Of a stretch of DNA of 64,000 nt, positions 2,341 through 40,299 are shown in pieces. Origin of the DNA: Prorocentrum cordatum (taxonomy: Eukaryota); the NCBI GenBank assembly GCA_963575745.1, contig CAUYUJ010000255.1, positions 1 through 64,000 on the forward strand. Direction: 5' to 3'. Both the position numbers and the translations under genes were made by a program. Position 1 is the stretch's first letter, and each line of letters opens with the position of its first letter. Under the pieces are notes generated by a model that did not search any database, was not told where the DNA came from, and was given only the letters and a program-made list of their open reading frames with translations.

Positions 2341-3120
2341 TGTCGGCGTAGAAGTGTTCTTTGTTCACAGCTCCGCTACCAATGCGATGTACTGCAGAAA
2401 GCATGGGGGGGCTGTGGCCTTGCACAGAAATCGCTTTTTAAAAATATCCTTTGGGGGTAACGCGTGTCATCCGAGGGGGAATCGGGGGTAGGCAGGGGGG
2501 ATAACAGAAACGGCGGCCGGTGTGCACCCCCAAAGGCGCGTCCGAAACACCGGCGCAACATAGGTGTGCTTACGACAACACCTGCGTGCACCACATCGTC
2601 TGTGTACACCACGGTGCTTCTGTTCACCCTAGCACCTGCGCACCCCATGACGCCACATCGCCTGTGTACACCGTAGCGCCTCTGTGCAACACCCGTGTGC
2701 GCAACAGTGCCATTGCACGCCACAGTACCTGCGTGCTCTGGACCGTTTTTGTATACCACGGCGCCGGCGCACATCACACCAGCCGTGTGCACCACACCAA
2801 GAGCGCTTCCGCAGCACAGTGCCTGTCGACGCCACAGCACTTGAGTGAAACACCTTGCGTTGTACTGGTGAAGACGAGGACGACGAGAGGGGGAATGCTA
2901 CGACGACGGCGACGCCGACGCCGAAGACGACGACGACAAAGCGACAATGTCTGTGCACCTTCTGGAGCCTCCGGGCCACGTCGGTCTTCGTCGTCGTCGT
3001 CCTCATACTCCTCCTCCTCCTTTTCCTCCTCCTCCCCCCTCTCCTCCTCATTATGAGGGTGCCTAGTCCGATGGAAACTGCAAGTATTCACGCCTGTGGC
3101 CCGTTCCAAAACGTTTGAAT

Positions 3121-3556
3121 GGGCCCTGGGACACACAAATAAATACACACAAATAAAAAGATTCCCCATATTTTCAAATATTTTGTGGGTCTCTGTCTTC
3201 CCCCCCACTTCCCATATTTTCGCATATTTTCTGGGAATCGACGAATCATTCTGTCAGTGTGTTTTTTCCCCTCCTGAACGTTACAGTCTCAAAGGGCAAA
3301 GCCGACCGGGGTCCATCCACAAGCCTCTCCGCGCCAAGCTTGCGAGGACCTTCCAGGTGCCCAAATTGCAACGAATGTCCAGACTTACTCATATAAAGGG
3401 GCCCCAGGACACACAAATAAATACACACAAGTAAAAATATTCCACATATTTTCAAATATTTTCGGGGTTTCTGTCTTCCCCCCCACTTCCCATATTTTCC
3501 CATATTTCGGGGGAATCGAGGATTAATTGTGTCTGTGTGTTTCTTTTCCTCCTGAT
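3121..3556. repeat. Two copies (3121-3279, 3396-3556) of the same ~160-bp dispersed element
   Basis: Shared gggcccc(a/t)ggacacacaaataaatacacacaa...tctgtcttccccccacttcccatatttt...cctcctga. Confidence 0.8.
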
Positions 3557-3751
3557 CGTATTCTGATCCAGTCACTCAGTCTCACCCAGACCAGCAATAT
3601 CCAGCCACACATACTCAGGCACACTTGCACCGAGACCCATTCTCACCCCAGGCACACGTGCACAAACTCACCCATACTCAGCCACACATTGCCAGGCAGT
3701 CTCTTGGGACAATGCTTTGTGCCGTCTTTTCCTCCACCCACGAGGCGGACG

Positions 3752-5360
3752 TCATCGAAGTGTGGTCCTGAACCCGATCCGAGCGCCGTGGAGGCTCCGC
3801 GAACACGAGAAAACATCGGCGGCGGGCGCATAGAGAGGGCTCGTCGGCGTTGCAGAGGCATCGGACACCGATGCGGCTGGACATCGAATCTTCTCCGCCT
3901 CGCGGCAATCGGCATGATCCGGCACGGTTGGAAATGTCTCCGCCACTGATGTGGACTCCTGAGTGGACCCGTGGCTGAGCAGCTCGCCTCCTGGCAAGAC
4001 GGCCTCGACTTTGGAGAACGACGACCGCAACATACCTAAACAAGTGCAAGTCATCAACCGGGCGTGTACATCCGCCAGACGGTCAGCGGGCGTTGCACTA
4101 ATCTTGAGAAACTCCTTACCGCCCAGCGTCGTGAAGAGTACCGAGACGCCATCAAAAGACGCTTGCAGAACCAGTGCCGGCAAAGCCCACGGCGGCAAAG
4201 ACTGTACATACTGGAGGTGGGCCGGACTCGCCTGCAGCCACTCTGCCCAGGTTCTGCAGGAGGGCACCTGGCACTGGCCGTAGAAATTCGCCCCGTGGGC
4301 TACGGCCACGCCGTCGCTCCTGAGCAGGACGGTGTGGCAGCCGCCAGCAGCAACTTCTGTGTAAGTCAGGCCACTCTCGAGACTTGTTATGCAGCACTGG
4401 GCGGCCTGATTCTGGCCAAACGCCACGGCCGTGCCATCGCTCTTGAGCAGAGCGGTGTGGAAATCACCCGCGGCCACCTGCGCGTACGTCACAGCTCCGC
4501 CCGGCGCCGGAATGCTGCACTGGCCCGCGTCGTTCCGGCCACAGGCCACGGCAGCGCCGTCGCTCCTATCGGCGGCCAGCCCGGGGGGGGGGAAGTGAGA
4601 GGGGGCGGGCCTTCTCAGAAGGTTCGGAAGTTCTCGGGCCTTCGGACAAGTTTTCTGAGCCTTCCCCGAAGACACAGAGAACTTCTCAGAAGGCCAGAGG
4701 GCTCCTTAGAAGCTCTGCCGCCTTATGAGAAGGCCTTCTTTGGAGGAGGAGGAGGAGGAGGAGGAGGAGGAGGAGGAGGAGGTACCCATACCTTCTCCTT
4801 CTTACTTCCCCCCCCCGCTCGCCACCGAGCCTGAGCAGGAGGGTGTGCGTGCCGCCAGCGGCAATCTGCGTGTAGGTCAGACCTTCATCCAGCGCTGGGA
4901 TGTCACACTGGCCCCAGCTCCTCGCTCCAACGGCCACTGCCACGCCATCGCTCCTGAGCAGAACGGTGTGGTCTTCGCCCCCAGCGACCTGCGCATAGGT
5001 CAGCCCATGCTGCAGCGCTGGAATGCTGCACTGGCCCAATCCATTCGAGCCGCATGCCACGGCCGCACCATCGCTTCTGAGCAGAACAGTGTGGACGAAA
5101 CCCGCACCAACCTGTATGTACGTTTGACCTTCGTCCAGGATCGGTATGTCGCACTGGCCACAGAAGTTGCCACCGCAAGCCACGGCGGCCCCATCGCTGC
5201 GGAGGAGGACCGTGTGGACAAACCCTGCAGAAACCTGCGTGTAGGTCAAGCCGCCGCCCAACGCCGGAATGTCGCACTGACCCGCGCGGTTTTGGCCGCA
5301 CGCCACTGCCACGCCATCGCTCCTGAGCAACACGCTGTGTTTCTTACCAGCAGCGACCAT
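3752..5360 (-). CDS. RCC1-repeat (RCC1/BLIP-II beta-propeller) protein; exons 5360-4831 and 4565-3752, ~447 aa after splicing
   Basis: About 6-7 RCC1 repeats (YTQVAAGxxHTVLLRSDGxAVACGxNxxGQC). The two ORF halves join in frame (LLLR-SDG) when 4830-4566 is removed. Confidence 0.85.
4566..4830 (-). mobile_element. Introner-like TIR element forming a 265-nt GC-AG intron in the RCC1 gene
   Basis: 3-bp duplication CCT (4565-4567, 4830-4832). Imperfect ~33-bp TIRs: atcggcggccagcc-G10-aagtgaga versus tcttactt-C10-gctcgccaccgag. Minus strand reads AG|GCTCGG...GATAG|G. Confidence 0.8.
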
Positions 5361-5396
5361 CGCCAGGTGGGGCTTGCACGAGATGGCTGGCTAGGC

Positions 5397-5418
5397 CTTG
5401 GTCCAAAATGGATGCGCA
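5397..5418 (-). other. Degenerate DinoSL relic upstream of the RCC1 gene
   Basis: Reverse complement TGCGCATCCATTTTGGACCAAG matches DinoSL at 17/22, in the correct orientation, 36 nt before the ATG at 5360. Confidence 0.7.
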
Positions 5419-5744
5419 CAGTCTTTTGGCGTCTCGGGGGCCGCTTGGGTAGTCTTGGGGCTCTCTTGGGCCGTCTTGGGCCCCTCAGGGGCGTCGCCGA
5501 AGTCTCCTGCGGGGAATGTTGGACCCACGTTGGGCCGCCTCAGGCCCGTCTGGGGCCATCTTTAACCTTTCTGAGGGCCCGGTTGGGGTCTTGGGCCGTC
5601 TTTGGCTCCTCTTGGGCCTTTTGGGGGACGCCCATTGGTCTCCTTTTGGCGGCATGGGGCGAGCTTGGGGGTCGCTTGGGCGGTCTTCGACGCTCTGACA
5701 GCATGAAAGCAAACAGTCTCCAATTCTACCCACACCCCACACGC

Positions 5745-6030
5745 AACAACACACACACACACACAAAGACACACAGGCAGCCCGACACACTGGCACACAG
5801 ACACACAGACACTCAGAAACAAAGACACACACAGACACACAGACACAAAGACACACATACACACCGACACACACACAGACACTCAGACACACGGACACAC
5901 AGACACACAGACACACAGACGCGCAGACACAGACACACAGACACAGACACACAGGCAGACACACAGAGACACAGACACACAGACACAGAGACACAAAGAC
6001 ACATAGGAACACAAACACACACACACACAC
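5745..6030. repeat. (CACAGA)n/(CA)n microsatellite
   Basis: Direct inspection. Confidence 0.9.
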
Positions 6031-7730: not shown

Positions 7731-9617
7731 ACAGAGGATTCTGACCCACTACCCTGGCACGGTGGCGGAATGGGCTTTAGGCCGCCAGGTAATCCAAGAG
7801 GGGCCTGAAATCGTCCAAGCTCCCGAAGAGAGCCCCCAGAGGGCCACACACACACAGAATTCCAAGCACCCCCCCAAACAATACCAGGAAACTTTGGTTT
7901 GACACGGTTGCGGGCTGTTTCGGGAACCCTCACGGGCCCTCGGGGCCCCTCTTTGAGACTCTTGGGACTTCCATTTAGCCCAGCGAGAGCTCGAAGTAGG
8001 CTCCAAGAGAACCCGGAGAGAGCTCCAAGATGGTCGCCAGAAGGTTGCCCACAGTATCATACTAAGGCACATTAGTGGGATGGCCGTGGGCCACGAGATA
8101 ATCCAAGAGGGGTCTGGAATCGCCCGAACGCCCCAAGAGCCCCCAGAGGGCCTCCAGATGATTCTCCACGAGACGACCGGGCTCGCCTTCTAGATGGTGG
8201 AGATGGCGCTGCATTGATGCCGACATGGTCCAAGATTCCCTCAACGACGGCGGCGATGACCTGGTCTGACCTAAGATGGCCCCAAAATGACTCCAAGACT
8301 GTTCCAGATGGCAACAAAAGGCTGCCATGAAGCCTGAGGAGGCTACGAGAGCCCCGAAACAGGCTCACAGGAGGTCTCCTCCTCCTCCTCCTCCTTGTTG
8401 TCCGCCTCCTCCTTTCCTCCTTCTCCTCCTCCTGCTTTTCCCCGTCCTCCTCCTCCTCCGCCGCAGCCTCCTCCTCCCCCTTCTGATTCCACCCCGCTTC
8501 CTCCCCCAGCGGCTGCGAGAGCACATGGGCAGATAGCTTGGTCAACCTGTGCCCCTCGTCATACGCTTCTTGGGAGCCACCTGGGGCTTCAAGGGCTCTC
8601 TTCGGGGCGTATGGCCCCAACCTCCCCGAACACATCCGGCTGTCACCTTCATCATGAGGGTCGGTAGCGATAAACCTTCCGCTGTCATTCTTTTTACGAC
8701 TCAACGGGTCTGGGAAGCAGGACCAGCCTCCCTCAGGAGCCCCTCAGCACCGTCCAAACGGTCCCCACCCCCACTCGGCCACGCATCTCAGCCCCACCCC
8801 GCCCCCCAGTTGGGGATAGGCCCCTCCAGGGTCGGCGGCACCAGCCGTAAGACCTTCACAGTACACATGGGTGTATTTAGCGCCGGGGGCCCCGACGACG
8901 TTGGAGGCCGTGGGGCCACCGAGCGGAGTCCTCCGCTTCCGCTCCTCGGCGCCTGGGTCCGGGCAGGCGCCAGCGTCCCTTGCGCGCGCGGTGGGGAGGG
9001 GGCGCCGGCGGCACCAGAGGGAGGAGGGCGTGAGAGGAGGAGGAGGAGGAGGAGGAGGAGGAGGAGGAGGAGGAGGAGGAGGAGAAGGAGGAGGAGGAGG
9101 AGGAGGAGGAGGAATGTGGAGAGCAGAAGGCAGAAAGGGAGGATGCGACGGATGCGGAGAAGAAGGAAAAGGATGAGAGGAGGAGGAGGAGGAGGAGGAG
9201 GAAGAAGGAGGCAGCGGATGAGGAGGAGGAAGAGGAGGAGGAGGAATGTGGAAAGCAGAAGACAGAGAGGGAGGATGCGAAGGATGCGGCGATGAAGGAG
9301 GATGAGGAGGAGGACGACGAGAAGGAGAAGGAGAAGACCTGATCACCACGCATCATGTGAGCGGCTGATGCAGCACGGCCCAGGAAAGCCCCGCCGGCGC
9401 GAGCGTATGTCGCGCCGCAGGTTGGGAAATGCGCTGGGGATACACCATGTCACCATCCCCCCCCCCCCCTCCCCCCGTCGCCGTGCTGAAGCGCCGCGCA
9501 CGGGCGCGGCGCGTCCTACCAAGCGGGGGAGGGGGGGCAGCGGCGGCGCACTTTATGCGCTCTTGATCCGCTCCCCTACGAACTAGCCACCAGCCCAGCC
9601 AGCTCCCCCCCCGCTAC

Positions 9618-9639
9618 TCCGTAGCCATTTTGGCTCAAG
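9618..9639 (+). other. Genomic relic of dinoflagellate spliced leader (DinoSL), perfect copy
   Basis: TCCGTAGCCATTTTGGCTCAAG matches consensus DCCGTAGCCATTTTGGCTCAAG at 22/22, 78 nt upstream of an ATG. Confidence 0.97.
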
Positions 9640-9717
9640 TTCTGTCCTTCGAGCTCCCGACGGCCCTCGCACTCCACGCAGGACCTCCGCTTCGGGGGCA
9701 AAACCACAACCGCCGTC

Positions 9718-10509
9718 ATGCCTCCCAAGCGCGGCGCCAAGGAGTTCAAGTTCCAGGTCCAGCTTGCCGGAGAATGGGCAGACTTCGATGCCAAAGAGGA
9801 CAAGCTGCTGAAGCAAGCCTACCTGTCTGGGTTCCCGAACATGAAGTACCGCTCGCGCGGACAACAGTACGAGGTGGACTTCAGGAACCTCGTGCAGAAG
9901 AACAAGGGCACGGGCAAGACGCGGGACATCCGACCGCCGCACAAGTGGAAGCCGCCCCCCGCGCCGATCATGGAGCCTGGCCCCATGACTTGCATCAAGG
10001 TGCCGCCTGGGGGCCCAGGGACTACGATCCAGGTTCCGCACCCGAAGGACAAGAGCCGGTTCATCAGCGTCTCGGTGCCCGCAAGCGCCCGGCCTGGCCA
10101 GCCCATGATGGTGCCTGTGCCGCCGCTGGAGGAGGTCGAAGAGCCCGCCGTGGTCCCGTCTGCGCCAGCGCCGGCTGCGGCGGCGGCGGCGGCGGCCCCG
10201 CCCGCGGCCGCAGAGAAGCCCGAGAAAAAGGGCTGGAGCACCGGGGCCAAGGTCGCCGCTGGCACGGCTGGCGTGGCCGCGGTGGCTGGCCTGGCCGTGG
10301 GCGGCGTCATCCTCGGGGAGCACATCGTCGAGGAGGGCTGGGACGCCACGATGGAGGACCTGGGCGACTGGGCTGGCGACGCAGGCTCGACCGTCGCGGG
10401 TGTTGCGGAGGATGCCGGGGAGGCTATCGCGGGCGCTGCGGAGGACGTCGTGGACTGGGTGGGCGACGCCGCGGACACCGCCGGCGACTTCATCATGGAC
10501 GTGTTCTGA
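9718..10509 (+). CDS. WWE-domain protein, intronless retrogene (263 aa)
   Basis: WWE-like segment FQVQLAGEWADFD...YEVDFRNLVQKNKGTGKTRDIR; strong GC3 bias; gccgtcATG context; DinoSL upstream; C-terminal hydrophobic and acidic repeat region. Confidence 0.85.
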   Translation: MPPKRGAKEFKFQVQLAGEWADFDAKEDKLLKQAYLSGFPNMKYRSRGQQYEVDFRNLVQKNKGTGKTRDIRPPHKWKPPPAPIMEPGPMTCIKVPPGGPGTTIQVPHPKDKSRFISVSVPASARPGQPMMVPVPPLEEVEEPAVVPSAPAPAAAAAAAAPPAAAEKPEKKGWSTGAKVAAGTAGVAAVAGLAVGGVILGEHIVEEGWDATMEDLGDWAGDAGSTVAGVAEDAGEAIAGAAEDVVDWVGDAADTAGDFIMDVF

Positions 10510-18173: not shown

Positions 18174-21100
18174 TACGCCCAGACGGGCGGGCGACGAGGC
18201 AGGTCCGCGGCGATGGCCGCCCGTCGCCTGCGCCTGCCGCAGGCGCTGGCCGGGCGGAGCAGGGCCGCAACGACCATGCCTTTTCGTGGGCCCCCGCGCT
18301 GCCGGCGCGAGGGCGGCGCCCGCGAGCTCTTGCACGGGGGCGCAGCAATGCCAGAAGCGCTGGGGCCACTCCTGCCAGAAGCTCTCGCGCAGCAAGGGAT
18401 CCTCGCCGTGCGCTGCGACGGCGAGCAGCTGCGAGCTCGAGCTGCGGAGGCACGCCGCCCGACCTGGCTCCAGACGAACAGTGGCGACGTGGGAGGCCCC
18501 GAGGACTGCGATTTCCCGCAGAGGCACTCGCCCTCTTCAACGTCGCTTTCGCGAAGCCCCTTCGGACGGTTGCGGGGGGGATGGCCAGCGAACAACTTAC
18601 GATCGACATCAGCGACCACGTGCCAGATTCGAGCGGCAGGACCTACTCCGAGCTGGCATGCCAAGGCGACACGCAGGACATTACACAGGCGGACGGCACG
18701 GTCTTCACTACAATACCAGAGGGCATGACAAAGACGCTTGAGAGGACACGGTGCGTGGGCGACATCGTATTTGAGCCTTCGGCTATATACGGGATGCAGC
18801 TCAATTTCGAGAAGAATGCGACGTCTGCAGACATGGCAGCCTGTGGCCGAGACGCAAGAACAAAACGAGCGCATGTATGCAGCGAGCAGGCGAAGATCAA
18901 GACAACGGTCCACGGCATCGAGATCGACATCGCCAGGGAACACCAGCACGTGGGCACAGACATCCACGCCGACGCCTCCTGGGGACCCGAGGTGCAGCAC
19001 CGCGCGCACGACCTGGCGGCAGGCACTTGCCCCCATGCGGCGAGCAATGTTCGGACAAGTCAACCCCCCTCCTCCTCCTCCTTTTCCTCCTCCTCCTCCT
19101 CCTCCTCCTCCTCCTCCTCCTTTCCCTCCTCGTCCAGCCCGCGGGGGCCTGTCACCAGCGCGCGCTGCCAAGTACGTGGACGCCCTGACGAGCTCCAAGC
19201 TGCTCCGCCAGTCAGAAGCCTGGGCGGACCTCGCGCACGCGGACGCCCAAAAGATCCTCACGGCCCACGCCAAAGGATGCAGAGCGGCTGCTGGAGCAGG
19301 ATCTGATAAGGAGGATGGGCGGCAAGCGAACGACGAGGACGCGCACGTCCAACCAGAGCGGGCAGACCTACCTGCCACGGTGTTCGCGCGACGCCTCCGA
19401 TGCTTCAGCGCCGTCGTCCACGAGGCGCCCACGAGCTCGAGGAGGCCGCTGGGCTACGGCGCTCCAGTGGGCGACGGGCGGCACGTGGAGCTCCAGACGT
19501 TGCTCGCATGGCCCGCCACGCACAACGGGGCCAACAGCACGCCCGAGAGCTCGAGCGACGACAAGGCCTGGCACCAGTGGCGCAAAAGAAACCCAAACGT
19601 CATGCCTAAAGTTGGTAAGAAGGCGTGGGGGGCTACAGAAGGTGGCGGCCGGAGTCCTGCAAGTTGAAAGCTTGGAGGAGGCAGCGGGGATATGGCGACC
19701 GCACCCGCGGTCGCAGACCACAACAGGAACCAGCCTGGCACGAAGACCGATTACATATGGCACCGGCACCATGCAGGTCCCGCAGATGACATACAAGCAG
19801 GAGGAGGAGGAAGGGGAGGAGGATCAGGAGAGAGTGGGCGAGGAGAGCAGGGACGCCTAGCTACATGCATTGGCAGCCACTCCAGGTCAGGGAGGGGGCG
19901 GCCGCCAGCTACCTAGGCCACTAGAGGGTGTACCTCTGGCCGGTATTAGGCTAGGACGTAAATGAACCCCCTGGCGGGAGCTAGCACCAAGCGTGGTGCG
20001 TTCCCTGGCCGGGGCGGGGCGGCACAGCTCAGCTGTGAGCGTGGTGCCACACGCCACCGCCCGTGACGCTAGCGCACGACGGTACCAGGCCGCAGCAGAC
20101 GGCGAGGCTGCCGGGAACTGGGCGCGGTGCGAACGTAAACCCGCTCTGGACAGGGCGGCTCAAGAGTAGGCGCGGCGAGCCAACTTGGCCGTTGCCTACG
20201 GCCGGCGAAGCCCTTTTCCTGTGACCCACTACACGGGTCGGGCGGGCGGGGAATTTCGGGCCGCAGGCCCGCCGTAGCGGCCAGGGCCGCGGCTGCCGCC
20301 CCGGCTCAAGCCTGAGCCGAAATGGCCATGGACAAGCACCGCTCGAGAGAGCGCGCGCGCGCGGGACACCAGCCCGGAGGGGGAAGCGCGGTTGTCTTCT
20401 CAACTCTTTATCTTCGCACCGCTAGCCCTGAGCGGGGAGTCCGGCCACCTAGCTGCGGCGGAATTTCGGCCACGTTCGTGGGACAGCCTCCGCCGGGGCC
20501 GGACTACAGTACATTGTGCCTGTGTCCTACCTGGGCGCAGTGACAATTCAAGGGGGCCTGCCTCCCCTACCCATCGCCCTTGAGGCTCACTACGATTGCG
20601 GGTGCTGCTTCACCTCAGTGGCATCATGGAAACGCCACAAGACGAAGCAACATCTCCCCGCCGAGGACCCGCAATACTTTGCGAGAGGGTCGACCTGCGA
20701 ATGCTGCAGGACGGGCTTCAGGCCGCGGGTAAGGTCAGTCAGGCATCTGCGACACCGAAACACAGAATGCATGGGATATTACCTGCAGGAGGTCGAGCCC
20801 ATGAAAACCAAAGAAGTCGAAAGACGCACAGGCGACCAAGAAGCTGAAAGCTAAAGGTTGGCGGGAGGACAAAGCGCTGCAGCCAGCAAAGAAGGCGGAC
20901 GGCGTGGAGCAAAGAGGGATGCCACGACGTGTCGAGAAGGCTGTCCCCCCAACGGTCACCACCGTTCAGCAGCGCCCAACGCCAACAACAACACGGCAGC
21001 CCCATAGTGCCCCCGCCACCTTGAACGGTACGCCTCGCGGATGCATCCGCGACCAAACTATATGGAGCATCGTTGCCACTCACCACCGCCATCCAGAGCT

Positions 21101-23179: not shown

Positions 23180-26100
23180 TCAAATCATATATTCACTGCG
23201 AGCTTTCGAGACCAAAACGGAAGCTAAAGTGTGAGCCAGGCGCGCAGGGTAAGGCATCGCGATGACGGTCCAGCGAACCCCCCCTGGGCCAGCTCCCTCG
23301 AGGTGCTGATGGGGGCGCCCTGTGCGGCTGCAAATCCCGCGGCCAGGACAGATCCGACTTAGTTTCGTCAGGTCTTCCGCGGGGACGTTTCCCACCAAAA
23401 AACGAGTTCTCTTTCTCCAGGGCTTTCCCCAGAGACAGTAGTCAGTGACAATAGAGACGGCGCGGCTACGCGCTACGAAAACTTTCAGTTTGTGATCATG
23501 CCACATCTTTGATGTGTGAGGGTTCTCAAGAACCCAGGGGACCCCGGCAGACTGGGCGGACCTGGCCAGATCAAGAGCTGCGTCCAGCGTGGCGTTACCG
23601 AGAGCGACCTTGGCCAGGTCGCGGGCGTCGAGGCCCGGGATCCCCCTAATAAACTTACGAGAGCGAATTGGGTACGTCCGATCCCGAGCAGCAGACCACG
23701 AGCTGCAGGGCGGAGCCAGCATCATTCCGATACATCGGCCGCGAGCGAGATCCTGTTTGATCGGCCTGCGGACTCTCGAATCACACAGGTCACCTGAAGG
23801 CCCGTGGAGCAGGTCCCACTCCCGAGCACAGAAACCAGCCACACGAACTTTCTTGCTAACTATCCCGCAGCCTGAAAAACACTCGGCAATATAAGTCTTA
23901 TCTACACATGCTGGCGACCGAAGGCTAGAGGCTCTCGTCTTCCGAGGAACGCATCCGCGAGCAGTGACTCGCAGCGCGTGCAGTGGCTGCGCGTCAGAGC
24001 GTCGAGCTTCCCGAACTCGAGCCCCACTCGCGCGTGCTTCTCGTACCGAGCCACGGACTTCAGCTTGCGCCAGCGGCCCCGCTTCATCACTTCTGGCAGC
24101 CCGCGAAGGTCGCGAAGCCGGTCGTGCGAGGCCCCGCTGTGCCGGAGTTGGTAGGGCACTAGCTTCAGCCCAAGGGTCGCGCCAGCGGCCCTCGCGTCGG
24201 CCAGCAGGTCCTGGTAGGTGAACGGGAAAGCCCGCTCCGCCGCTGGCCTTGAGTTGATCTCCCTCCAGACCACGTCGAGCCACTTGAGCGACTTCATGTC
24301 GAGCTGGAGGCTGTCGTCGAGCACCCCCACCTTGGTAGGCTGGCCCAACTCCTCCGGAGCCAGCAGCAGGCACCAGTACTTGGACACCCCGTCCAGGGGG
24401 CCTATGAAATGGCCGCACCTGATGTTCAGCATCTCGGACGGCCTCAGGTAACACATGAAGCAAAGCAGGATCGCCGCCGCCTCGTAGCGCTTGCCACGCG
24501 CCAGAAGCCAGTGGCAGACTGCCGCCCAGACGCAGAAGGGCATCGGGTGGCGGCTCCGGCCAGGGCACAGGCGGCGCCAGCCCTTCACTGCTCTCCACGA
24601 TCGTGGGAGCGAAAGCTGGCCAATCTTCCCAAACTCCGGGAGGACGTGAAGGACACCAGCCAGCAATTTCTCCCCCACATTGGCCTGCTTGCCAGTAAGG
24701 AACAGCTCCGTCATGTGGATACACAACGTCCCATCCAGCTGGGACGGCGGGTGAAGGCCAAGGCGCCGCTGCTTCGCCCAGTAGTAGAGCCGGGAGACCA
24801 GGAGGTGGTAGTAGTCCCTGGTCTTGGTCTGCACGGCGTAGGACTCCAGCAGCGTCCCCATCTGGTCCATGGCCTGCCGAGCGGAGAGGAGGTACTTGGC
24901 GCGTCTGCGTTTGCACCGACCCCTCATGGCTTCGTCCAGGTCGTCGCTGTCTGAGCTGTCCTGCACGCCCGCCGCCTCGTCGTGGTCCAGGCCGGTGTCG
25001 GCCTCCTCGAGCCCGACGCTGATCAGGGGCCCGGCGAAGGCCTCCTTCTCTGACAGCCCCTCGAGCTTCGGCGCCTGCACCCGGTCCAGCAGCACTGGTA
25101 TTGCCACGCCCAGCGTCCGCCTCTTGCTCTTGACTCCCGCCGGCGGCTTCACCACGGACGAGAGCTGGGGCCGGCGAAGCCGCGTCGGGCACGAAGGCGC
25201 CGGCGCGGACAGGCGGGCTTGCCGCTTGGGGGCTGCAGGCCGCCGGGCGGTCGCTGGTCGGCGGCCGAGGCGTGCTTCCATCGGCATCTCTCGATGGGTC
25301 GTCGGCTGGATTGAATTCTGATTTGATCCAGCGGAAATACGGACGAATGTTATGGATAAGACACAGGGCGCGGAAGCGCCGAATTTGCCGTAGTACAACG
25401 TAGTTTTTACATCTTCCCCGAGCGAACGAGAGCGTGATAGCCATGTTGTCGATCAGGAATAGGTTTCGACTGTTTCGAACTCCTTCGGCGATCAGACTCT
25501 CCAGACCCAGAACTAGTGCCCGAGCTTCTAACTCCAGAATGCGTTCTCCAAAATTCCACTTACCCTTTCCAGTAACTCTCCAGGGTGATATCAAATCGGA
25601 CTCGGCGATGCAGCCCCGGGCAGAGAAGAGACCCCCTTCCCCGAACGGCACCTCCGGAAACAGGCTGTCAATCATCCAGACCTCCTCCCCCGTCGACAAC
25701 GGCAAGGCCTCCCCGATGTCGATGATGGTGGTGGTGGTGTCGGTGAACGATAGCGGATGGTGATTGTCATTGTCCTCGTCTAACGGATACAGTGCTGCGC
25801 TCGCTGCCTCGCGAGCTCCAAGGCTGTGCACACGACGAAATCGGGACACCTCTGAAGTGCGAGCGATGCTAGCCACTGCTTTGGCCGTCAACGAGCAACG
25901 GCAGTGCCCCCATCCCTCGAGGGAGGCATCTGTGGCTACTATCGTCTCACACCAAGGTAGATCCCACGGCGCCCGCACCAGAGGCAGGAGCCCAATGAAG
26001 GCCTGGAGCTCCTGCCGCACGGTCGGCCACACCACCGCCGCGGCGTCGCCGTACCGGTGGATGAAGGCGTAGCAGGCGTTGAACACGCTTAGGGCCGTTC

Positions 26101-27535
26101 GGTCCAGCAGGCTGACGAACGTGGCGTGCCCGACGAGCCGCTCCAGCTGCTTGCCGCTGAGGCGTCGCCGCCGAAGGGCCCAACGAAAAGCGCCATCGAT
26201 GCGCCACCTCCGTTTCTCGGTCACCTGCGTCTCGAGCCGGTGGCCGTCCAGCACGCACCCCAGCGTCTCGCCGCCATTGCCCTTCAGGTCGTGCTCGTGC
26301 GTCTTCAGGCCGACGGCGTCCAGGGCTGCGCAGCCCTTGTTGAGCGCCAGACCCACAGGCCGCTCGGCGCTGCCGACTACGTCCAGGTTGTCCACATACA
26401 GGGCGTACCTCACGTCTGCCCCCTTTCCCAGCACGATGGGGGCGGTGTAGTCGGAGGCCCTTCTCTCGGGCCCCAGCTGGTGCACCTTGTTGAGGACTGC
26501 CTCGCTGCACTTCTGAGCGACCCACAGCGACCACGTAAATCCCATGGGGAACGATGCCAAGCAGGGATACACCGGCGCCTCTCGCGCCAAGCTGTCCCGC
26601 AAAGGCGTATGCTTCGCCGCGATCGGATGGAGGGCGAAACACCGGTGCATGCCGTCGGGGAGCCGCAACCGGTGGAAGCAGTTCTCGACGTCGCCGATGC
26701 CCAACGTGAAGATGCAGTCGGGGTCCTCCTTGTAGTCCGCCTCGCACTCGATCCTGGACAGCCCCTCGCTTGTGATCAGCTCGGTGTGCGGAGGAGCTTT
26801 GAACCGGCGGTTCCCCCTCCTCGCGTCAATGATGAGTCTCAGGGACTTGTCCTTCTTTCCAACAAAAAACATACCTGCGTGCTCGATGGGCTCAGTGGTC
26901 CACTGGATCAGGCCCCGGCGCTCGAGGTCCAAAATGAACAGCCGGTAGGTCTTCTGGTTCCGCGACAGCTTCTTGTCCCAGAACGGTTTGATATCACCCA
27001 GCCTCTCGTTGAGCTTGTTAAACTCATCGGTAGACCGCATCATGCTCTTCTGCCAACCCTCGATGATCAGGCGGTCCTCAGCGTCCAGCACCTCCGTCAC
27101 GACTGCTGCATCGTGGACGTGCTCGGGGAGCGAGACGGAACCAAACTCGTAGGGCACGACGGTAGTGTAGGTCTCCTCGGCATCGTAGCTGAGATGACCT
27201 CGGAGAAGCACGCGAGCGGCTTCTTCCTGGGAAGGCGCTGTCACCGGCTTCGCGATCACAGGGGCGACGAGAGTCGCCACGGCCTCCTCATCAAATTCAT
27301 TGGCGCCTGGCGGCCCTGAAGTCCGCGCACCCAGGCACCAGTGGAGCGCATCCACGGTCTCGTTCTTGCGCCTGAACTCCTCCACGCCCAGTCCATGACG
27401 ACGTCTGGACCGACGCGAGGGAGCACCAACCCGCGACGGGATGTCGTAGGAGGGCAGGCGGCGATGCACTCCCATGCAGGACCTGGTAAAGGCGACGGGG
27501 GCTGGCCCACTTCCCCCGCCGCTCGCCTCCATCAT
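23180..27535 (-). CDS. DIRS pol: reverse transcriptase + RNase H, in frame with a C-terminal C5 cytosine DNA methyltransferase (1451 aa ORF)
   Basis: RT motifs: MFFVGKKDKSLRLIIDAR, IGDVENCFHRL, FPMGFTWS, YVDN (26387-26398). RNase H motifs: TDASLEGWG, ELEARAL, IDN, WIKSEFNPADDPSR. DNMT motifs: I (ECFSGCG), IV (APPC), VI (LENP), VIII (RKRTRF) in ~23180-23900. Confidence 0.9.
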   Translation of the reverse strand: MMEASGGGSGPAPVAFTRSCMGVHRRLPSYDIPSRVGAPSRRSRRRHGLGVEEFRRKNETVDALHWCLGARTSGPPGANEFDEEAVATLVAPVIAKPVTAPSQEEAARVLLRGHLSYDAEETYTTVVPYEFGSVSLPEHVHDAAVVTEVLDAEDRLIIEGWQKSMMRSTDEFNKLNERLGDIKPFWDKKLSRNQKTYRLFILDLERRGLIQWTTEPIEHAGMFFVGKKDKSLRLIIDARRGNRRFKAPPHTELITSEGLSRIECEADYKEDPDCIFTLGIGDVENCFHRLRLPDGMHRCFALHPIAAKHTPLRDSLAREAPVYPCLASFPMGFTWSLWVAQKCSEAVLNKVHQLGPERRASDYTAPIVLGKGADVRYALYVDNLDVVGSAERPVGLALNKGCAALDAVGLKTHEHDLKGNGGETLGCVLDGHRLETQVTEKRRWRIDGAFRWALRRRRLSGKQLERLVGHATFVSLLDRTALSVFNACYAFIHRYGDAAAVVWPTVRQELQAFIGLLPLVRAPWDLPWCETIVATDASLEGWGHCRCSLTAKAVASIARTSEVSRFRRVHSLGAREAASAALYPLDEDNDNHHPLSFTDTTTTIIDIGEALPLSTGEEVWMIDSLFPEVPFGEGGLFSARGCIAESDLISPWRVTGKGKWNFGERILELEARALVLGLESLIAEGVRNSRNLFLIDNMAITLSFARGRCKNYVVLRQIRRFRALCLIHNIRPYFRWIKSEFNPADDPSRDADGSTPRPPTSDRPAACSPQAASPPVRAGAFVPDAASPAPALVRGEAAGGSQEQEADAGRGNTSAAGPGAGAEARGAVREGGLRRAPDQRRARGGRHRPGPRRGGGRAGQLRQRRPGRSHEGSVQTQTRQVPPLRSAGHGPDGDAAGVLRRADQDQGLLPPPGLPALLLGEAAAPWPSPAVPAGWDVVYPHDGAVPYWQAGQCGGEIAGWCPSRPPGVWEDWPAFAPTIVESSEGLAPPVPWPEPPPDALLRLGGSLPLASGAWQALRGGGDPALLHVLPEAVRDAEHQVRPFHRPPGRGVQVLVPAAGSGGVGPAYQGGGARRQPPARHEVAQVARRGLEGDQLKASGGAGFPVHLPGPAGRREGRWRDPWAEASALPTPAQRGLARPASRPSRAARSDEAGPLAQAEVRGSVREARASGARVREARRSDAQPLHALRVTARGCVPRKTRASSLRSPACVDKTYIAECFSGCGIVSKKVRVAGFCAREWDLLHGPSGDLCDSRVRRPIKQDLARGRCIGMMLAPPCSSWSAARDRTYPIRSRKFIRGIPGLDARDLAKVALGNATLDAALDLARSAQSAGVPWVLENPHTSKMWHDHKLKVFVARSRAVSIVTDYCLWGKPWRKRTRFLVGNVPAEDLTKLSRICPGRGICSRTGRPHQHLEGAGPGGVRWTVIAMPYPARLAHTLASVLVSKARSEYMI
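23902..25287 (-). CDS. Tyrosine recombinase (integrase) of the DIRS element, ~461 aa from first ATG
   Basis: YR catalytic signature: YLRPSE (R), TKVG (K), YQLRHSGASHD (x-x-R box), KRGRW, SVARYEK (Y nucleophile). ATG at 25287 follows the RNase H end. Confidence 0.92.
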   Translation of the reverse strand: MPMEARLGRRPATARRPAAPKRQARLSAPAPSCPTRLRRPQLSSVVKPPAGVKSKRRTLGVAIPVLLDRVQAPKLEGLSEKEAFAGPLISVGLEEADTGLDHDEAAGVQDSSDSDDLDEAMRGRCKRRRAKYLLSARQAMDQMGTLLESYAVQTKTRDYYHLLVSRLYYWAKQRRLGLHPPSQLDGTLCIHMTELFLTGKQANVGEKLLAGVLHVLPEFGKIGQLSLPRSWRAVKGWRRLCPGRSRHPMPFCVWAAVCHWLLARGKRYEAAAILLCFMCYLRPSEMLNIRCGHFIGPLDGVSKYWCLLLAPEELGQPTKVGVLDDSLQLDMKSLKWLDVVWREINSRPAAERAFPFTYQDLLADARAAGATLGLKLVPYQLRHSGASHDRLRDLRGLPEVMKRGRWRKLKSVARYEKHARVGLEFGKLDALTRSHCTRCESLLADAFLGRREPLAFGRQHV

Positions 27536-29127
27536 GATGCTGGCGGGGGCGCTGGGAGCCCGGGCTTGCCTTTCTTGGTCTTGCCTCCTGCCCCTCGGCC
27601 CCCGCCGCCTTTGTTACCACCTGCGCCCGGCGCCGCGCCGGCCGCGCCTGGGTCCTCCTCGTCGTAGCCCTCCGCCTGCGGCGCGTACAAGCCGCCGCGC
27701 TGCACGCCGCCCTCCAGAGCCTTCTCCTTGAGCTTCCTCGCGCCGTAGACACGCAGGTCCGGAGCCACCGCGTCCTCCAGCATCGCGGTGCCTGAGTACA
27801 CGCCGGCCATGCTGTAGTTCGGCTTGGCGCCCGGCACCGAGTGGGCCTCCAGGAGTGTCTGGAAACGCCTCATCAGCACCTCGATCCCTGCTAGGCAGGG
27901 CATGTTCAGCTGGTCGTAGCAGCCGAACTGCTCGAAGCTCTCGGCCAACACTCGCAGCTCGTGGTAGGCGCGGTCCGAGGGCGCGACGTGCTTTCTCCTC
28001 CCCCATGCCTCCAGCCAACTGGTCGGCATCGGCCCGAAGCGGTCGATGTGCTTCATCACGCTGAGGGCGGTGCTCGGGCCGTCGAGCGGCCAGTCGCGGA
28101 AGGAGTGCGAGCTTGACTCCCTACATACCTCCTTCCAGTCCTTGTGCCGCTCCCCCTGCGAGTCCCAGTCGACCTCCAGCACGCGGACGTCCACCGCGAC
28201 CTCGCCAGCGGCCGCCGGTGCTGCTGCGCCGGGCGGCCGCTCCCCGAGCACGCGCTCGAGTAGGGGGCTGCCTTCTCCTGCGTCTTCGATCTCGCGGCCA
28301 CCTGCCTCCCGCCTGAAAGCGCCGACAGGGTCGTCGTCGAGCGCGATGGTGGGCGGCTCCGGCGCGCCGCGCGGCGTTGGCGGCGAGAACTGCACCAGCC
28401 GCTGAGTCTTGAAGTCCTCCTCCGAGACTTCCGGGCTCACGGCCATCACCGGCGCCTCGAGCCCTGTGTCCGAGATGGCCACGCCGAAAAGCCGCCCGCC
28501 GAAGACTAACAGCCTCGGCTCCACCTCGCTGCCGATGTTGCCGAAGGCCAGGCCGGGCTCGGAGACCCGCCAGGTCACTGCGGGAGGCTGGTCGTCGCCC
28601 TCGAGCCTATCGAGAGCACCTGCGAAAACATCACCTCGTCGATCGCCTCGGGGCCCGGAGCGGGCACGCGCCGCCGCGGTCAGCGGCAAGGATGGCCCAG
28701 GCACAGGCAGCGCTCCGCGCCTTGGGAGGCGCCGCCGTCTGGGCATCGGCTCCAGCGTTCCGTCGGTGGAGACCCACTGCGTCGGTGCCGGCCAGTCTGG
28801 CAGCCCGAGCGCGCCTCGAAGGGCGCCCGCATGCAACTGGGCCGCGGCCAGCAGGTCGAGGCACTCCTGTCGCTGGACTGGCCGGTCGAACTGCACGATG
28901 TCGACCGACTCCAGCCTGGGCGGGCGATCCCCGAAGCCCTTGAGGGCCACCACCTTCTCATACAGGGAGGTGTCTTCCACGTAGAAGTGCCCCTGGGCGG
29001 TGTAGATCATCCACACCGAAGTCGAGAGCGGCCACACCAGCACGCGCTCATGTCCCCAGGCGTCACCCTCGAAGAACACCACGAACGTGTGCCCGGGCAA
29101 GGGCGTAGTGGGCACGACGACCGCCAT
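27532..29127 (-). CDS. Gag-like ORF of the DIRS element (~531 aa from ATG)
   Basis: Long non-repetitive ORF directly upstream of pol; its TGA overlaps the pol ATG (ATGA at 27535-27532). Gag identity is inferred from position only. Confidence 0.75.
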   Translation of the reverse strand: MAVVVPTTPLPGHTFVVFFEGDAWGHERVLVWPLSTSVWMIYTAQGHFYVEDTSLYEKVVALKGFGDRPPRLESVDIVQFDRPVQRQECLDLLAAAQLHAGALRGALGLPDWPAPTQWVSTDGTLEPMPRRRRLPRRGALPVPGPSLPLTAAARARSGPRGDRRGDVFAGALDRLEGDDQPPAVTWRVSEPGLAFGNIGSEVEPRLLVFGGRLFGVAISDTGLEAPVMAVSPEVSEEDFKTQRLVQFSPPTPRGAPEPPTIALDDDPVGAFRREAGGREIEDAGEGSPLLERVLGERPPGAAAPAAAGEVAVDVRVLEVDWDSQGERHKDWKEVCRESSSHSFRDWPLDGPSTALSVMKHIDRFGPMPTSWLEAWGRRKHVAPSDRAYHELRVLAESFEQFGCYDQLNMPCLAGIEVLMRRFQTLLEAHSVPGAKPNYSMAGVYSGTAMLEDAVAPDLRVYGARKLKEKALEGGVQRGGLYAPQAEGYDEEDPGAAGAAPGAGGNKGGGGRGAGGKTKKGKPGLPAPPPAS

Positions 29128-29644: not shown

Positions 29645-30833
29645 AAGGAGGAGGAGGAGGAGGAAGGAGGAAGGAGGAGGAAAGTTCGAGGAGGCCTTCC
29701 GCCATTCTCGGCATATGGGCGACCCGGGCGAAAGACTGGCCAGCATGGACACCCGGAGGGGCGAACGGATTTGGCTCTGGACGGGGAGGAAGGGGGGGAA
29801 AGAATGAGGATGGGTCGTAGCCATCGTCGTTGTGGCAATCGACATCTGCCCGTCCGCGCGTCCGTCCGTCCTCGTCGTCGCTGCTTCCGTCCGAAAGAGG
29901 GGGGGAGAGGAGGGAGAGGAGGAGGAAGAGGAGGGAGGAGAAATAGAGGAGGTAGGGAGGAGAACGAGGATGGAGAGGAGAAAGAGGAGGTAGGGATGAG
30001 GAAGAGGATGGGGGGAGAGGCGGGAGAGGAGGAGAAAGAGGAGGGAGGAGAAAGAGGAGGCAAGCAGAGAGAGAGGATGGGGGGGAGCTGAGGGGGAGGA
30101 ACGGCAGCGAGAAGAGAGAGCAGGGCGCCGGCGTGCCGGAGGAGGAGGCAGAGGGGAGGACGGAGAAGGAGGCCACAGACGGGAGGAGGGGGAAGGTTGC
30201 TCCCGGGGATCAAGGCTGCTCCCTCCAAGGGATACAACTCACATCGAATCATGCCCCAGTCAGTGCTTGCACTGAAGGGGTCATAGCGGATGTTGAAAGA
30301 TTTGGCTAACGCTTCCCGCCTATTTTGGTGGCCAGCTGGGTTCCCGGGTTCCCGGTTCTGGATTCCCAGGTTCATGGTTATTGGTTCCGGTCCGATTTCG
30401 GTGGGTTCCGGGTTCTCGGGATCCCGGGTTCCTGGTCGATCTCCTTATCGATTTCTGCACCGACCTTGCAGACGTGCTGCAGTGGATTTTCCCCATGGAT
30501 TTCAGTCAATACAAAGCCCCGAAACGGCGAGTGAAAAACGAGGTGGATTGCGCGTGGAGTCTGTTTAGTCTCCATTCCTGGCCCAAACGAATCCGCACAA
30601 CATTCACCTCGAAATCTGGAACGAAATGCTCCAGGACACTCCGGGCCCATCCTGTCGTTTTCCAGTCGACATCCGCTCTGCGATGTTGGCGCCATGACAC
30701 GGCGGAGGGCCCCAGGCCCAACGGGCAGGGCGCTCCTCGGGTCCTCCGTCCCAGGCGCCTGCAGGCAGACCGCGCGCCGGCGAGGCTGGCTGAGCGGTCA
30801 GCAGCCTCTCTCGCTCCACCTCGCTGAGCGATC

Positions 30834-31555
30834 TCCTCCTCCTCCTCCTCCTCCTCCTCCTCCTCCTCCTCCTCCTCCTCCTCCCCTTCCTCCTCCTCCT
30901 CCTCCCTCCTCCCTCCTCCTCTTCCTCCTCCTCCTCCTCCTCCTCCTCCTCCCTCCTCCTCCTCCTCCTCCTCCTCCTCCTCCTCCTCCCTCCTCCTCCT
31001 CCTCCTCCTCCTCCTCCCTCCTCCTCCTCCTCCTCCTCCTCCTCCTCCCTCCTCCTCCTCCTCCTCCTCCTCCTCCTCCTCCCTCCTCCTCCTCCCCTCC
31101 TCCTCCTCCTCCTCCTCCCTCCTCCTCCCCTCCCCTCCTCCTCCCTCCTCCTCCGCCTCCTCCTCCTCCTCCTCCTCCTCCTCCTCCTCCTCCTCCCCCT
31201 CCCCTCCTCCTCCTCCTCCGCCCTTTCCTCCTCCTCCTCCTCCTCCCTCCTCTTCCTCCTCCTCCCTCCTCCTCCCCTCCTCCGCCTCCTCCTCCTCCTC
31301 CTCCCTCCTTCCCCCTCCTCCTCCTCCTCCCTCTCCTCCTCCTCCTCCTCCTCCTCCTCCTCCTCCTCCCCTCCTCCTCCTCCTCTGACCCTCCTCCTCT
31401 CCTCCTCCTCCTCCTCCTCCTCCTCCTCCTCCTCCTCCTCCTCCTCCTCCTCATCCTCCTCCTCCTCCTCCTCCTCCTCCTCCTCCTCCTCCTCCTCCTC
31501 CCTCATCCTCCTCCTCCTCCTCCTCCTCCTCCTCCTCCTCCTCCTCCTCCTCCTC
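30834..31555. repeat. (CCT)n microsatellite, ~720 bp; many similar CCT/GGA tracts, e.g. 142-470, 9033-9112, 21400-21522, 49764-49960, 56280-56765, 57170-57470
   Basis: Direct inspection. Confidence 0.95.
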
Positions 31556-40199: not shown

Positions 40200-40299
40200 N
40201 NNNNNNNNNNNNNNNNNNNNNNNNNNNNNNNNNNNNNNNNNNNNNNNNNNNNNNNNNNNNNNNNNNNNNNNNNNNNNNNNNNNNNNNNNNNNNNNNNNN
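40200..40299. other. Assembly gap (100 N)
   Basis: Run of n between two satellites. Confidence 0.99.

What the first reader, a model, noticed from the sequence alone, without database searches (positions are those of the whole stretch)
4565..4832. Transposon insertion that makes itself a perfect GC-AG intron in a retrogene
Seen: a 262-bp insert with ~33-bp imperfect TIRs and a 3-bp AGG duplication (gene strand) splits an RCC1 repeat. The duplication plus the terminal base yields donor AG|GC and acceptor TAG|G, and splicing 4830-4566 restores LLLR-SDG exactly. Established: GC donors and introner elements are known in dinoflagellates. Inference: intron gain caught in an originally intronless, SL-tagged retrogene. 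The target triplet again matches the genome's dominant AGG motif.
Basis: partly seen in the sequence, partly recalled or inferred. Interest (0 to 1): 0.7.

Follow-up and report, generated by a model that had tools for sequence, protein, structure and literature searches.

The report
Transposon-made intron in dinoflagellate retrogene
A 262-base hairpin-shaped mobile element landed inside a dinoflagellate RCC1-repeat gene and is cut out of the RNA exactly as an intron built from its own insertion scar, a clean example of an already known way of making introns.

Summary
On the minus strand a 447-codon RCC1-repeat gene (ATG 5360, stop 3752) is split in its fifth repeat by a 262-bp insert (4568-4829). 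The insert has imperfect terminal inverted repeats and a 3-bp AGG duplication.

Removing 4830-4566 (265 nt, GC..AG, phase 2) restores the repeat motif exactly.

RNA contigs from 3 of the 4 runs laid skip exactly these 265 nt, one of them a poly-A RNA library. One 1505-nt contig matches both exons without a mismatch. The public Prorocentrum cordatum protein model carries the same junction.

Related element ends with other flanks occur in other transcripts, so it is a repeat family.

A decayed spliced-leader relic (16/21) sits where the transcripts begin, which supports a retrogene.

The way the splice sites are built was already described for Polarella introner-like elements (Roy et al.). This scan has noted several such introns elsewhere in this genome.

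Not shown: that insertion followed retroposition, any AGG target preference, and the absence of an empty-site DNA copy.

Verdict: a real, well-supported new member of a known kind; modest interest.

The parts
4568..4829 (-). 262-bp non-autonomous TIR element (MITE-like); no coding capacity of its own
   Evidence: inverted ends, 3-bp duplication. The end-to-end score was reached by 0 of 2000 shuffles.
4797..4829 (-). Terminal inverted repeat at the intron's 5' end on the gene strand. Its first base, C4829, is the second base of the GC donor.
   Evidence: alignment; pairs I3 and I4.
4568..4603 (-). Terminal inverted repeat at the intron's 3' end on the gene strand. Related ends with other flanks occur in other RNA contigs.
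   Evidence: alignment. tables 7 and 8: contigs matching 4586-4631 with 1-2 differences and different flanking sequence.
4830..4832 (-). Upstream copy of the target-site duplication (AGG on the gene strand). AG is exonic; the G is the first base of the intron.
4565..4567 (-). Downstream copy of the target-site duplication (AGG on the gene strand). AG is the acceptor; the G is the first base of exon 2.
4566..4830 (-). Spliced intron: 265 nt, GC..AG, phase 2.
   Evidence: table 5: joint 4564->4830 skipping 265 nt in X1, X12 and X4, ambiguous by 3 bases; the public protein model has the same junction.
4742..4782 (.). (GGA)13.7 microsatellite core of the element; reads CCT/TCC repeats on the gene strand.
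4633..4732 (.). Internal palindromes built on a repeated GGCCTTCTCAGAAGG-like motif; they add to the long hairpin.
   Evidence: I1, I2, D3, D4; fold.
4831..5360 (-). Exon 1 coding part (ATG at 5360): RCC1 repeats 1-4 and the first part of repeat 5.
   Evidence: Pfam RCC1_2, E = 7.5e-28.
3752..4565 (-). Exon 2 coding part, stop codon included: the rest of repeat 5, repeats 6-7, and a roughly 170-residue tail without a Pfam match.
   Evidence: Pfam RCC1_2, E = 4.2e-15.
5397..5418 (-). Decayed relic of the 22-nt dinoflagellate spliced leader (16 of 21 fixed positions). The RNA contigs begin at its 3' end.
   Evidence: contigs start at 5395-5397 and depth is zero at 5408-5500 in all four runs. SL sequence as printed in PMC6050394.

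Best explanation
A non-autonomous TIR DNA transposon (MITE, 262 bp) inserted into the codon pair CTC-AGG of the fifth RCC1 repeat of a Prorocentrum cordatum gene and duplicated the 3-bp target AGG. Because of that target and the element's orientation, the insertion scar supplies the splice sites:
- The last G of the upstream AGG plus the element's first base C make a GC donor, preceded by exonic AG.
- The AG of the downstream AGG is the acceptor, followed by exonic G.

The spliceosome therefore removes G + element + AG (265 nt) and the original reading frame is restored to the base. This is an introner-type intron gain.

Pairing of the inverted ends in the pre-mRNA brings donor and acceptor within a few bases of each other. 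This may help the two sites to be paired; that step is inferred.

The host gene carries a decayed spliced-leader relic at its transcript start and has no other intron. It is most likely a retrocopy that was intronless when made and gained this intron later; that order is inferred.
For: Shown:
- TIRs, TSD and exact frame restoration.
- The joined form is present in 3 of 4 laid runs (X1, X12 poly-A RNA, X4). X4 record 17 runs 5397-4830 plus 4564-3700 with 0 differences.
- Coverage stops at 5397-5407 and is zero upstream in all runs, so the contigs behave as RNA.
- X1 also holds intron sequence without differences (4538-4616, 4592-4677, 4648-4732) at lower depth than the exons.
- The public P. 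cordatum protein P0001 (100% identical over exon 2) reads across the same junction.
- Family: contigs of 120-600 nt in X1, X12 and X4 match 4586-4631 with 1-2 differences. They continue into other sequence, and in two of them the end reads like this element's end, preceded by different flanks.
- Fold: z = -4.57.

From papers:
- P. cordatum donors are 51.4% GC and 79.7% of acceptors are AG followed by G. Genes average 9.8 introns of mean length 4709 bp, so a gene with one 265-nt intron is atypical (PMC10666404, passage).

Order of events:
- The SL relic differs from the SL at 5 of 21 positions. The element differs from the majority of its relatives at 2 of 46 positions (4586-4631). Fisher p = 0.027.
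Against: - No run on record as DNA was offered. The spliced product is by construction identical to the transcript of an uninterrupted (empty-site) copy, so RNA contigs alone cannot separate the two.
- The one X1 contig that crosses the exon-intron border has only 28 exon letters. That is under the tool's 31-letter rule for bridging.
- The raw-read RNA run X23 gave only 21 reads and none at the joint.
- No second full copy of the element was recovered: none in the window, none in metagenome or viral collections, and no genome is held.
- The two visible flanks of other copies are AAG and AAA, not AGG.
- The divergence comparison rests on few sites. It assumes neutrality and that the majority of relatives stands for the source copy.
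- Retrocopies that kept parental introns are reported in Symbiodiniaceae (PMC5585692, passages).
Confidence: 0.85

Rival explanations
1. The transcripts come from an uninterrupted allele or recent duplicate of the gene (empty site). The copy in the window would then be a MITE-disrupted, unspliced pseudogene.
For: The empty-site sequence equals the spliced sequence by construction. No DNA run was available. P. cordatum genes are often duplicated (PMC10666404, passages). X12 and X4 show no unique intron interior: depth is 0 at 4676-4797.
Against: - Exons and UTRs of the RNA contigs match this locus at 0 differences over 1433 nt.
- The boundaries are exactly the majority splice signals of this species, AG|GC and AG|G.
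- X1 holds both intron sequence and the joined form, and exon contigs of X1 and X12 end at 4567, the exon-intron border, where a fork between a spliced and an unspliced form would break a contig (that reading is inferred).
- No second copy of the gene lies in the window.
- The genome authors' transcript-based model uses the same junction.
Confidence: 0.08
2. The intron is real and transposon-made, but it was not gained in a retrogene. Either the element was already in the parent gene and the retrocopy was made from a partly unspliced RNA, or the SL-like motif is not a retroposition relic.
For: Song et al. report that Symbiodinium retrogenes have about as many introns as other genes (16.74 against 17.1 in S. 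minutum) and that some retain parental introns (PMC5585692, passages). A match of 16/21 or better turned up once in 4 of 20 shuffles of the whole window. No parent gene was found: the best other P. cordatum protein is 54% identical over 48% of the query.
Against: - The relic lies on the gene strand, 36 nt before the ATG and exactly at the 5' end of the RNA contigs. My estimate of the chance for such a placed match is about 1e-4, scaled.
- The gene has one short intron in a genome averaging 9.8 long ones.
- The relic is more decayed than the element.
Confidence: 0.2
3. An ordinary old intron that happens to have self-complementary ends; not a mobile element.
For: Only one full copy was seen.
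Against: The end-to-end score was reached by 0 of 2000 shuffles. A perfect 3-bp duplication flanks the insert and the repeat unit is restored exactly. None of the other six RCC1 repeats of the gene has an intron at the equivalent site. Related ends with other flanks occur in other transcripts.
Confidence: 0.03

Closest known systems
Introner-like elements of Polarella glacialis, classes 12 and 9 (Roy et al., bioRxiv 10.1101/2020.10.14.339549; published in Curr Biol 2023 according to the reference list seen)
   Same: A TIR/TSD DNA element whose insertion scar supplies the splice sites. [quoted passage not shown] Class 9 has a 3-nt TSD. The coding sequence is restored exactly.
   Different: Different species (Prorocentrum). 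No sequence comparison with the Polarella classes was possible here. Class 12 has a 5-nt TSD. The class 9 element sequence is not given in the text I read. Copy number of the present family is unknown.
'Introner elements' (IE+ introns) reported as enriched in the P. cordatum genome (Dougan et al., PMC10666404 / bioRxiv 10.1101/2022.07.25.501386), defined as in Farhat et al. 2021 for Amoebophrya
   Same: Same genome, going by the name attached to the 100%-identical protein. The intron meets their operational pattern: inverted repeats of 8-20 nt and direct repeats of 3-5 nt within 30 bases of the intron ends.
   Different: Their definition is a pattern count without families, TSD-to-splice-site anatomy or RNA proof for single loci. 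I did not open their supplementary gene list, so I cannot say whether this gene is in it.
DinoSL-tagged retrogenes (Slamovits and Keeling model as summarised in PMC5585692 and PMC6050394)
   Same: A relic of the 22-nt spliced leader lies upstream of the start codon on the gene strand, and the gene is colinear with its mRNA apart from one intron.
   Different: There is only one relic, and it is decayed (16/21). No parent gene was identified. Those papers read introns in retrogenes mainly as retained parental introns, whereas this one carries the marks of a fresh insertion.

Membership tests
Introner / introner-like element (ILE) | The intron is co-extensive with a transposon-like insert (here TIRs plus a target-site duplication). 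| tested here: met
   the intron is the 262-bp element plus 3 bases of TSD. The TIR score was reached by 0 of 2000 shuffles.
Introner / introner-like element (ILE) | It is removed precisely from transcripts, with splice sites recruited from the TSD and/or the element ends, restoring the coding sequence. | tested here: met
   the 265-nt skip is present in 3 of 4 runs laid; the frame is restored. Caveat: no DNA run was available to exclude an empty-site copy.
Introner / introner-like element (ILE) | It belongs to a multi-copy family whose copies form introns in unrelated genes. | tested here: inconclusive
   several RNA contigs share 4586-4631 (1-2 differences), and in two the terminal 15 nt, with other flanks. 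No second full copy was obtained and no genome is held. Whether the other copies are introns is unknown.
IE+ intron in the sense of Farhat et al. / Dougan et al. | Inverted repeats of 8-20 nt and direct repeats of 3-5 nt within 30 bases of each intron end. | tested here: met
   Definition from the methods passage.
Roy et al. class 12-type mode of intron creation | Donor = terminal G of the TSD plus initial C of the element; acceptor AG from the TSD. | tested here: met
   against the description read. This is a match of mode only; sequence relatedness to that class was not tested.
MITE (non-autonomous TIR DNA transposon) | Short, with no transposase ORF, with TIRs, a TSD of fixed length, and multiple copies mobilised in trans. 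| tested here: inconclusive
   Size, TIRs and TSD are met. The frame read through the element runs into a stop. Copy number is only partly shown. The partner transposase and the superfamily were not identified.
DinoSL-tagged retrogene | A relic of the 22-nt spliced leader encoded in the DNA upstream of the coding sequence, on the same strand. | tested here: met
   16 of 21 positions at 5397-5418 (-). RNA contigs start at 5395-5397.
DinoSL-tagged retrogene | An identifiable parent gene with introns and fewer relics. | tested here: not met
   within 148-473 residues the only near-identical protein is the locus's own model. The next P. cordatum protein is 54% identical. Most dinoflagellate retrogenes are orphans according to PMC6050394 (passage).
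RCC1-repeat protein (Pfam RCC1_2, PF13540) | Significant match to the repeat model on both sides of the insert. | tested here: met
   E = 7.5e-28 for exon 1 and 4.2e-15 for exon 2; seven motifs spaced 41 residues apart.

The most novel reading that the evidence does not exclude
Spliced-leader relics give each dinoflagellate retrogene a built-in 'intronless at birth' mark. A TSD-flanked introner inside such a gene is then an intron gain whose polarity needs no outgroup.

If this locus is typical, introner insertion after retroposition would explain why dinoflagellate retrogenes carry about as many introns as other genes. The explanation offered in print is retroposition of unspliced RNA.

The C at the donor end, where the other three visible ends of the family have A, could be a GA-to-GC donor improvement after insertion.

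I found no paper linking introners with dinoflagellate retrogenes. In one search, 8 papers hold both words and 6 were listed, none on dinoflagellates by title. In one search, 30 papers held at least 3 of the 4 terms and 15 were listed, none making this link by title or start of abstract.
Probability: 0.3. Interest if true: 0.5.

Novelty: new member of a known kind. Interest (0 to 1): 0.3.

Why it matters
Introners are the best-supported source of new spliceosomal introns, and dinoflagellates are the richest known case. This locus adds nothing new in mechanism. It is, however, an unusually legible single example: both splice sites can be traced base by base to the insertion scar, RNA confirms exact removal, and the host gene's spliced-leader relic suggests it started without introns.

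A genome-wide count would turn this into a test. It would take introns in SL-tagged genes and ask what share carry TIR/TSD marks and what share are shared with a parent gene. That would decide between two explanations for intron-rich retrogenes: gain by introners, or retroposition of unspliced RNA.

The locus also shows that the public gene model, though right at this intron, drops three RCC1 repeats elsewhere.

Tried and rejected
- **Whole genome:** none is held for this window, so no genome-wide census of the element was possible.
- **Other copies in the window:** none. The 16-nt arm motif hits only the two arms. blastn with the microsatellite masked gave no match better than 28 nt at E = 0.013.
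- **Public collections:**
  - A 24-nt subterminal pattern gave 0 hits in metagenome contigs and 0 in viral contigs.
  - A 21-nt terminal pattern gave 10 metagenome loci. In all 10 the match does not continue into the element, so they are chance hits in G+C-rich contigs.
- **Raw-read RNA run X23:** 21 reads were laid from about 12% of the run, with none at the joint. The reads over 4554-4675 carry the variants of other family copies. This says nothing either way.
- **Other (AGG)n arrays as cores of similar elements:** of 37 merged microsatellite blocks, only this one has non-microsatellite inverted flanks scoring 30 or more.
- **A second copy of the RCC1 gene in the window:** tblastn hits only the gene itself.
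- **Rfam over the whole window:** no match at gathering thresholds.
- **Earlier notes of this scan:** nothing near this place and no look-alike by sequence.
- **Superfamily of the element:** a 3-bp TSD alone does not decide it, and the ends are not CACTA-like. Left open.
- **Runs listed but not laid:** the shares of words held by those runs were not used as evidence.

Full report
**What is there**

The minus strand of the window carries a gene with its ATG at 5360 and its stop ending at 3752. Both halves match Pfam RCC1_2, at E = 7.5e-28 and 4.2e-15.

The coding sequence is interrupted at 4830-4566. On the gene strand the order is:
- AGG at 4832-4830;
- a 262-bp insert at 4829-4568;
- AGG again at 4567-4565.

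The two ends of the insert are inverted repeats, 4797-4828 against 4569-4603. Of 32 aligned bases 28 match, with one 3-nt gap in a G run. The repeat finder reports them as two arm pairs of 20 nt (90%) and 21 nt (81%). The outermost bases differ: C at 4829, and A at 4568 read on the plus strand.

The interior holds a (GGA)13.7 microsatellite at 4742-4782 and nested palindromes built on a GGCCTTCTCAGAAGG-like motif.

**Is it more than chance?**

- The end-to-end alignment score of 36 was reached by 0 of 2000 shuffles of the element.
- It was reached by 52 of 9055 other 262-nt segments of the window. The 25 best of these lie where AGG and CCT microsatellites face each other.
- A 16-nt motif from the arms occurs only at the two arms. 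The expectation is 0.27, although 5 of 100 shuffles gave two or more matches.
- As RNA, the intron with 10 nt of exon on each side folds into one long hairpin: -141.8 kcal/mol, z = -4.57, and 0 of 200 shuffles fold as well. The donor and acceptor lie a few bases apart at its foot.
- Removing 4830-4566 (265 nt) gives a single 447-codon frame. It has seven H-x-x-L-L-R/K-S-D-G motifs at a 41-residue spacing, and the fifth is the one restored.
- Left in, the frame runs on into the element and stops.

**Is it spliced?**

No genome is held for the window. Public runs hold the stretch: 24 were listed, 20 hold it or a part of it, 17 hold half of the sampled words or more, and 4 are on record as RNA, from 10 studies. 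None is on record as DNA.

I laid four runs. A joint from 4564 to 4830 that skips 265 nt, ambiguous by 3 bases because of the duplication, is present in contigs of three of them:
- X1 (kind unknown);
- X12 (poly-A RNA-seq);
- X4 (guessed to be RNA).

X4 record 17 is 1505 nt long. It lies on 5397-4830 and then on 4564-3700 with no differences. Apart from this intron, the mRNA is therefore colinear with the DNA.

All four runs have zero depth at 5408-5500, and the contigs start at 5395-5397. The material thus behaves as transcript, not as genomic DNA.

Within the 3-base ambiguity, only one placement gives known splice dinucleotides: donor AG|GC and acceptor AG|G.

In P. cordatum 51.4% of donors are GC and 79.7% of acceptors are AG followed by G (PMC10666404, table passage). 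The species name comes from the 100%-identical protein. This intron therefore has the commonest signals of its genome.

X1 also holds intron sequence without differences (4538-4616, 4592-4677, 4648-4732) at lower depth than the exons. In X1 and X12 the exon-2 contigs end at 4567, the exon-intron border. I read that as a fork in the assembly between a spliced and an unspliced form; the call shows only where the contigs end. The border-crossing contig has only 28 exon letters, under the tool's 31-letter rule, so I count it as suggestive only.

The raw-read run X23 was too thin to tell: 21 reads, none at the joint.

The public protein model for the locus (P0001, 324 aa, Prorocentrum cordatum) reads straight across the same junction.

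**Is it a mobile family?**

In X1, X12 and X4, several contigs of 120-600 nt match 4586-4631 with one or two differences and then run into unrelated sequence. Some have much higher depth than the gene: 430 in X1 and 59 in X4.

In two of them the letters before 4586 repeat this element's terminal 15 nt with one or two changes. They are preceded by different flanks ending in AAG and AAA (tables 3, 7, 8). Related ends therefore sit at other transcribed places.

I could not obtain a second full copy:
- none in the window;
- none in metagenome or viral contigs with a subterminal pattern;
- ten metagenome hits to a terminal pattern were chance matches that do not continue into the element.

Family membership is therefore supported but not quantified. 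The two foreign flanks speak against a strict AGG target.

**The retrogene**

The 22-nt DinoSL, as printed in PMC6050394, matches 5397-5418 on the gene strand at 16 of its 21 fixed positions. Its core, CCATTTTGG, is intact.

A match of 16/21 or better anywhere in the window appeared once in 4 of 20 shuffles. This one, however, lies 36 nt before the ATG, on the right strand, and exactly where the RNA contigs begin. Scaling, I estimate the chance of such a placed match at about 1e-4.

The gene has one 265-nt intron in a genome whose genes average 9.8 introns of mean length 4709 bp.

Present-day trans-splicing at the relic's own AG would explain the contig starts. This is inferred, because no contig carried a leader.

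**Order of events**

A retrocopy of a mature mRNA is intronless, so the intron would be a later gain. This is not proven.

Song et al. report that Symbiodinium retrogenes have nearly as many introns as other genes and that some keep parental introns (PMC5585692, passages). No parent of this gene was found.

One weak numerical argument favours 'insertion later'. The relic has decayed at 5 of 21 positions, while the element differs from the majority of its relatives at 2 of 46 (Fisher p = 0.027). The sites are few, and the comparison assumes neutrality.

**How it works**

The mechanism, with shown and inferred steps marked:
- Inferred: a transposase supplied in trans makes a staggered 3-nt cut.
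- Shown: the repair duplicates AGG.
- Shown from sequence and RNA: the upstream AGG gives exonic AG and the first intron base G. The element's first base C completes the GC donor. The downstream AGG gives the acceptor AG and the first exon base G. The spliceosome removes 265 nt.
- Inferred from the fold: the hairpin of the inverted ends brings the splice sites together.
- Inferred: in the opposite orientation the first element base would be A, giving a GA donor. GA makes up 23.8% of donors in this species, so the element should be able to make introns either way round.

**Comparison with what is known**

Roy et al. describe this for Polarella glacialis (bioRxiv 10.1101/2020.10.14.339549, text parts 1-2 of 4):
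- Class 12 elements take the acceptor from the TSD. [quoted passage not shown]
- Class 9 has 3-nt TSDs with splice sites in, across or outside the TSD.
- Class 14 takes both sites from an AGGH TSD.

[quoted passage not shown] This intron meets that pattern.

Gozashti et al. place such elements in a broad survey (PMC9860276 and PMC12130899, passages).

Earlier notes of this scan list several transposon-made introns on other pieces of the same genome. I did not re-test them, and none resembles this element by sequence.

The locus is thus a new member of a known kind, in a genome where the kind is already reported.

**What may be new**

The new point is the pairing with an SL relic. I found no paper that links introners with dinoflagellate retrogenes:
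- In one search, 8 papers hold both words. Six were listed, none on dinoflagellates by title.
- In one search, 30 papers held at least 3 of the 4 terms. Fifteen were listed, and none makes the link by title or start of abstract.

If SL-tagged genes in general gained their introns by such insertions, that would compete with the published reading that retrocopies were made from unspliced RNA. One locus cannot show this.

**Verdict**

The order of events and the target preference remain open. Interest is modest.

Noticed in passing
window 9618-10509 (+): A perfect 22/22 spliced-leader sequence lies at 9618-9639. It is followed by TT, not by a GT donor. An uninterrupted 263-codon ORF starts at 9718 and has a WWE domain (Pfam E = 5.6e-11). 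This looks like a very young retrogene.
   Followed up: partly
window 20311-20332 (-): Another spliced-leader-like relic, 17 of 21 positions. The downstream gene was not examined.
   Followed up: no
window 4954-5322 (-): The public protein model of this locus (P0001, 324 aa) lacks 123 residues, exactly three RCC1 repeats. The only placement of that 369-nt skip with splice-like ends is GA..AG between equivalent CTCAG|GAGCGA sites of repeats 1 and 4. No such joint appeared in the four runs laid, and X4's contig is colinear there. It is probably a gene-model artefact or a rare isoform. It also shows that every repeat carries an AG|GA proto-splice site.
   Followed up: partly
window, throughout (e.g. 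190-382, 9034-9112, 30833-31553, 49781-49954, 56393-56762): AGG/CCT-type microsatellites are very frequent: 80 arrays of 6 or more units, merging into 37 blocks in 64 kb. Only the one inside this element has non-microsatellite inverted flanks.
   Followed up: partly
window about 3115-3275 and 3400-3565 (-): Just downstream of the gene's transcript end, an A/T-richer unit of about 160 nt is present twice. It carries 'GAAAATATGGGAAGTGGGGGGGAAGACAGA' and an ACACACAAATAAAT repeat (seen by eye; TRF rows). Its nature is unknown.
   Followed up: no
window 5738-6030: A 290-bp ACAGACAC-type simple repeat lies upstream of the gene, and short GGCCCAAGA-like repeats at 5420-5492 lie directly before the SL relic. 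Similar short repeats occur near 38.6 kb and 7.4 kb.
   Followed up: no
window 23183-29127 (-): Two long adjacent ORFs (1451 and 531 aa) have no Pfam match at E <= 0.001. They may be an unrecognised gene or mobile element, or G+C-driven open frames.
   Followed up: partly
window 40200-40299: A run of 100 N, which is an assembly gap.
   Followed up: no
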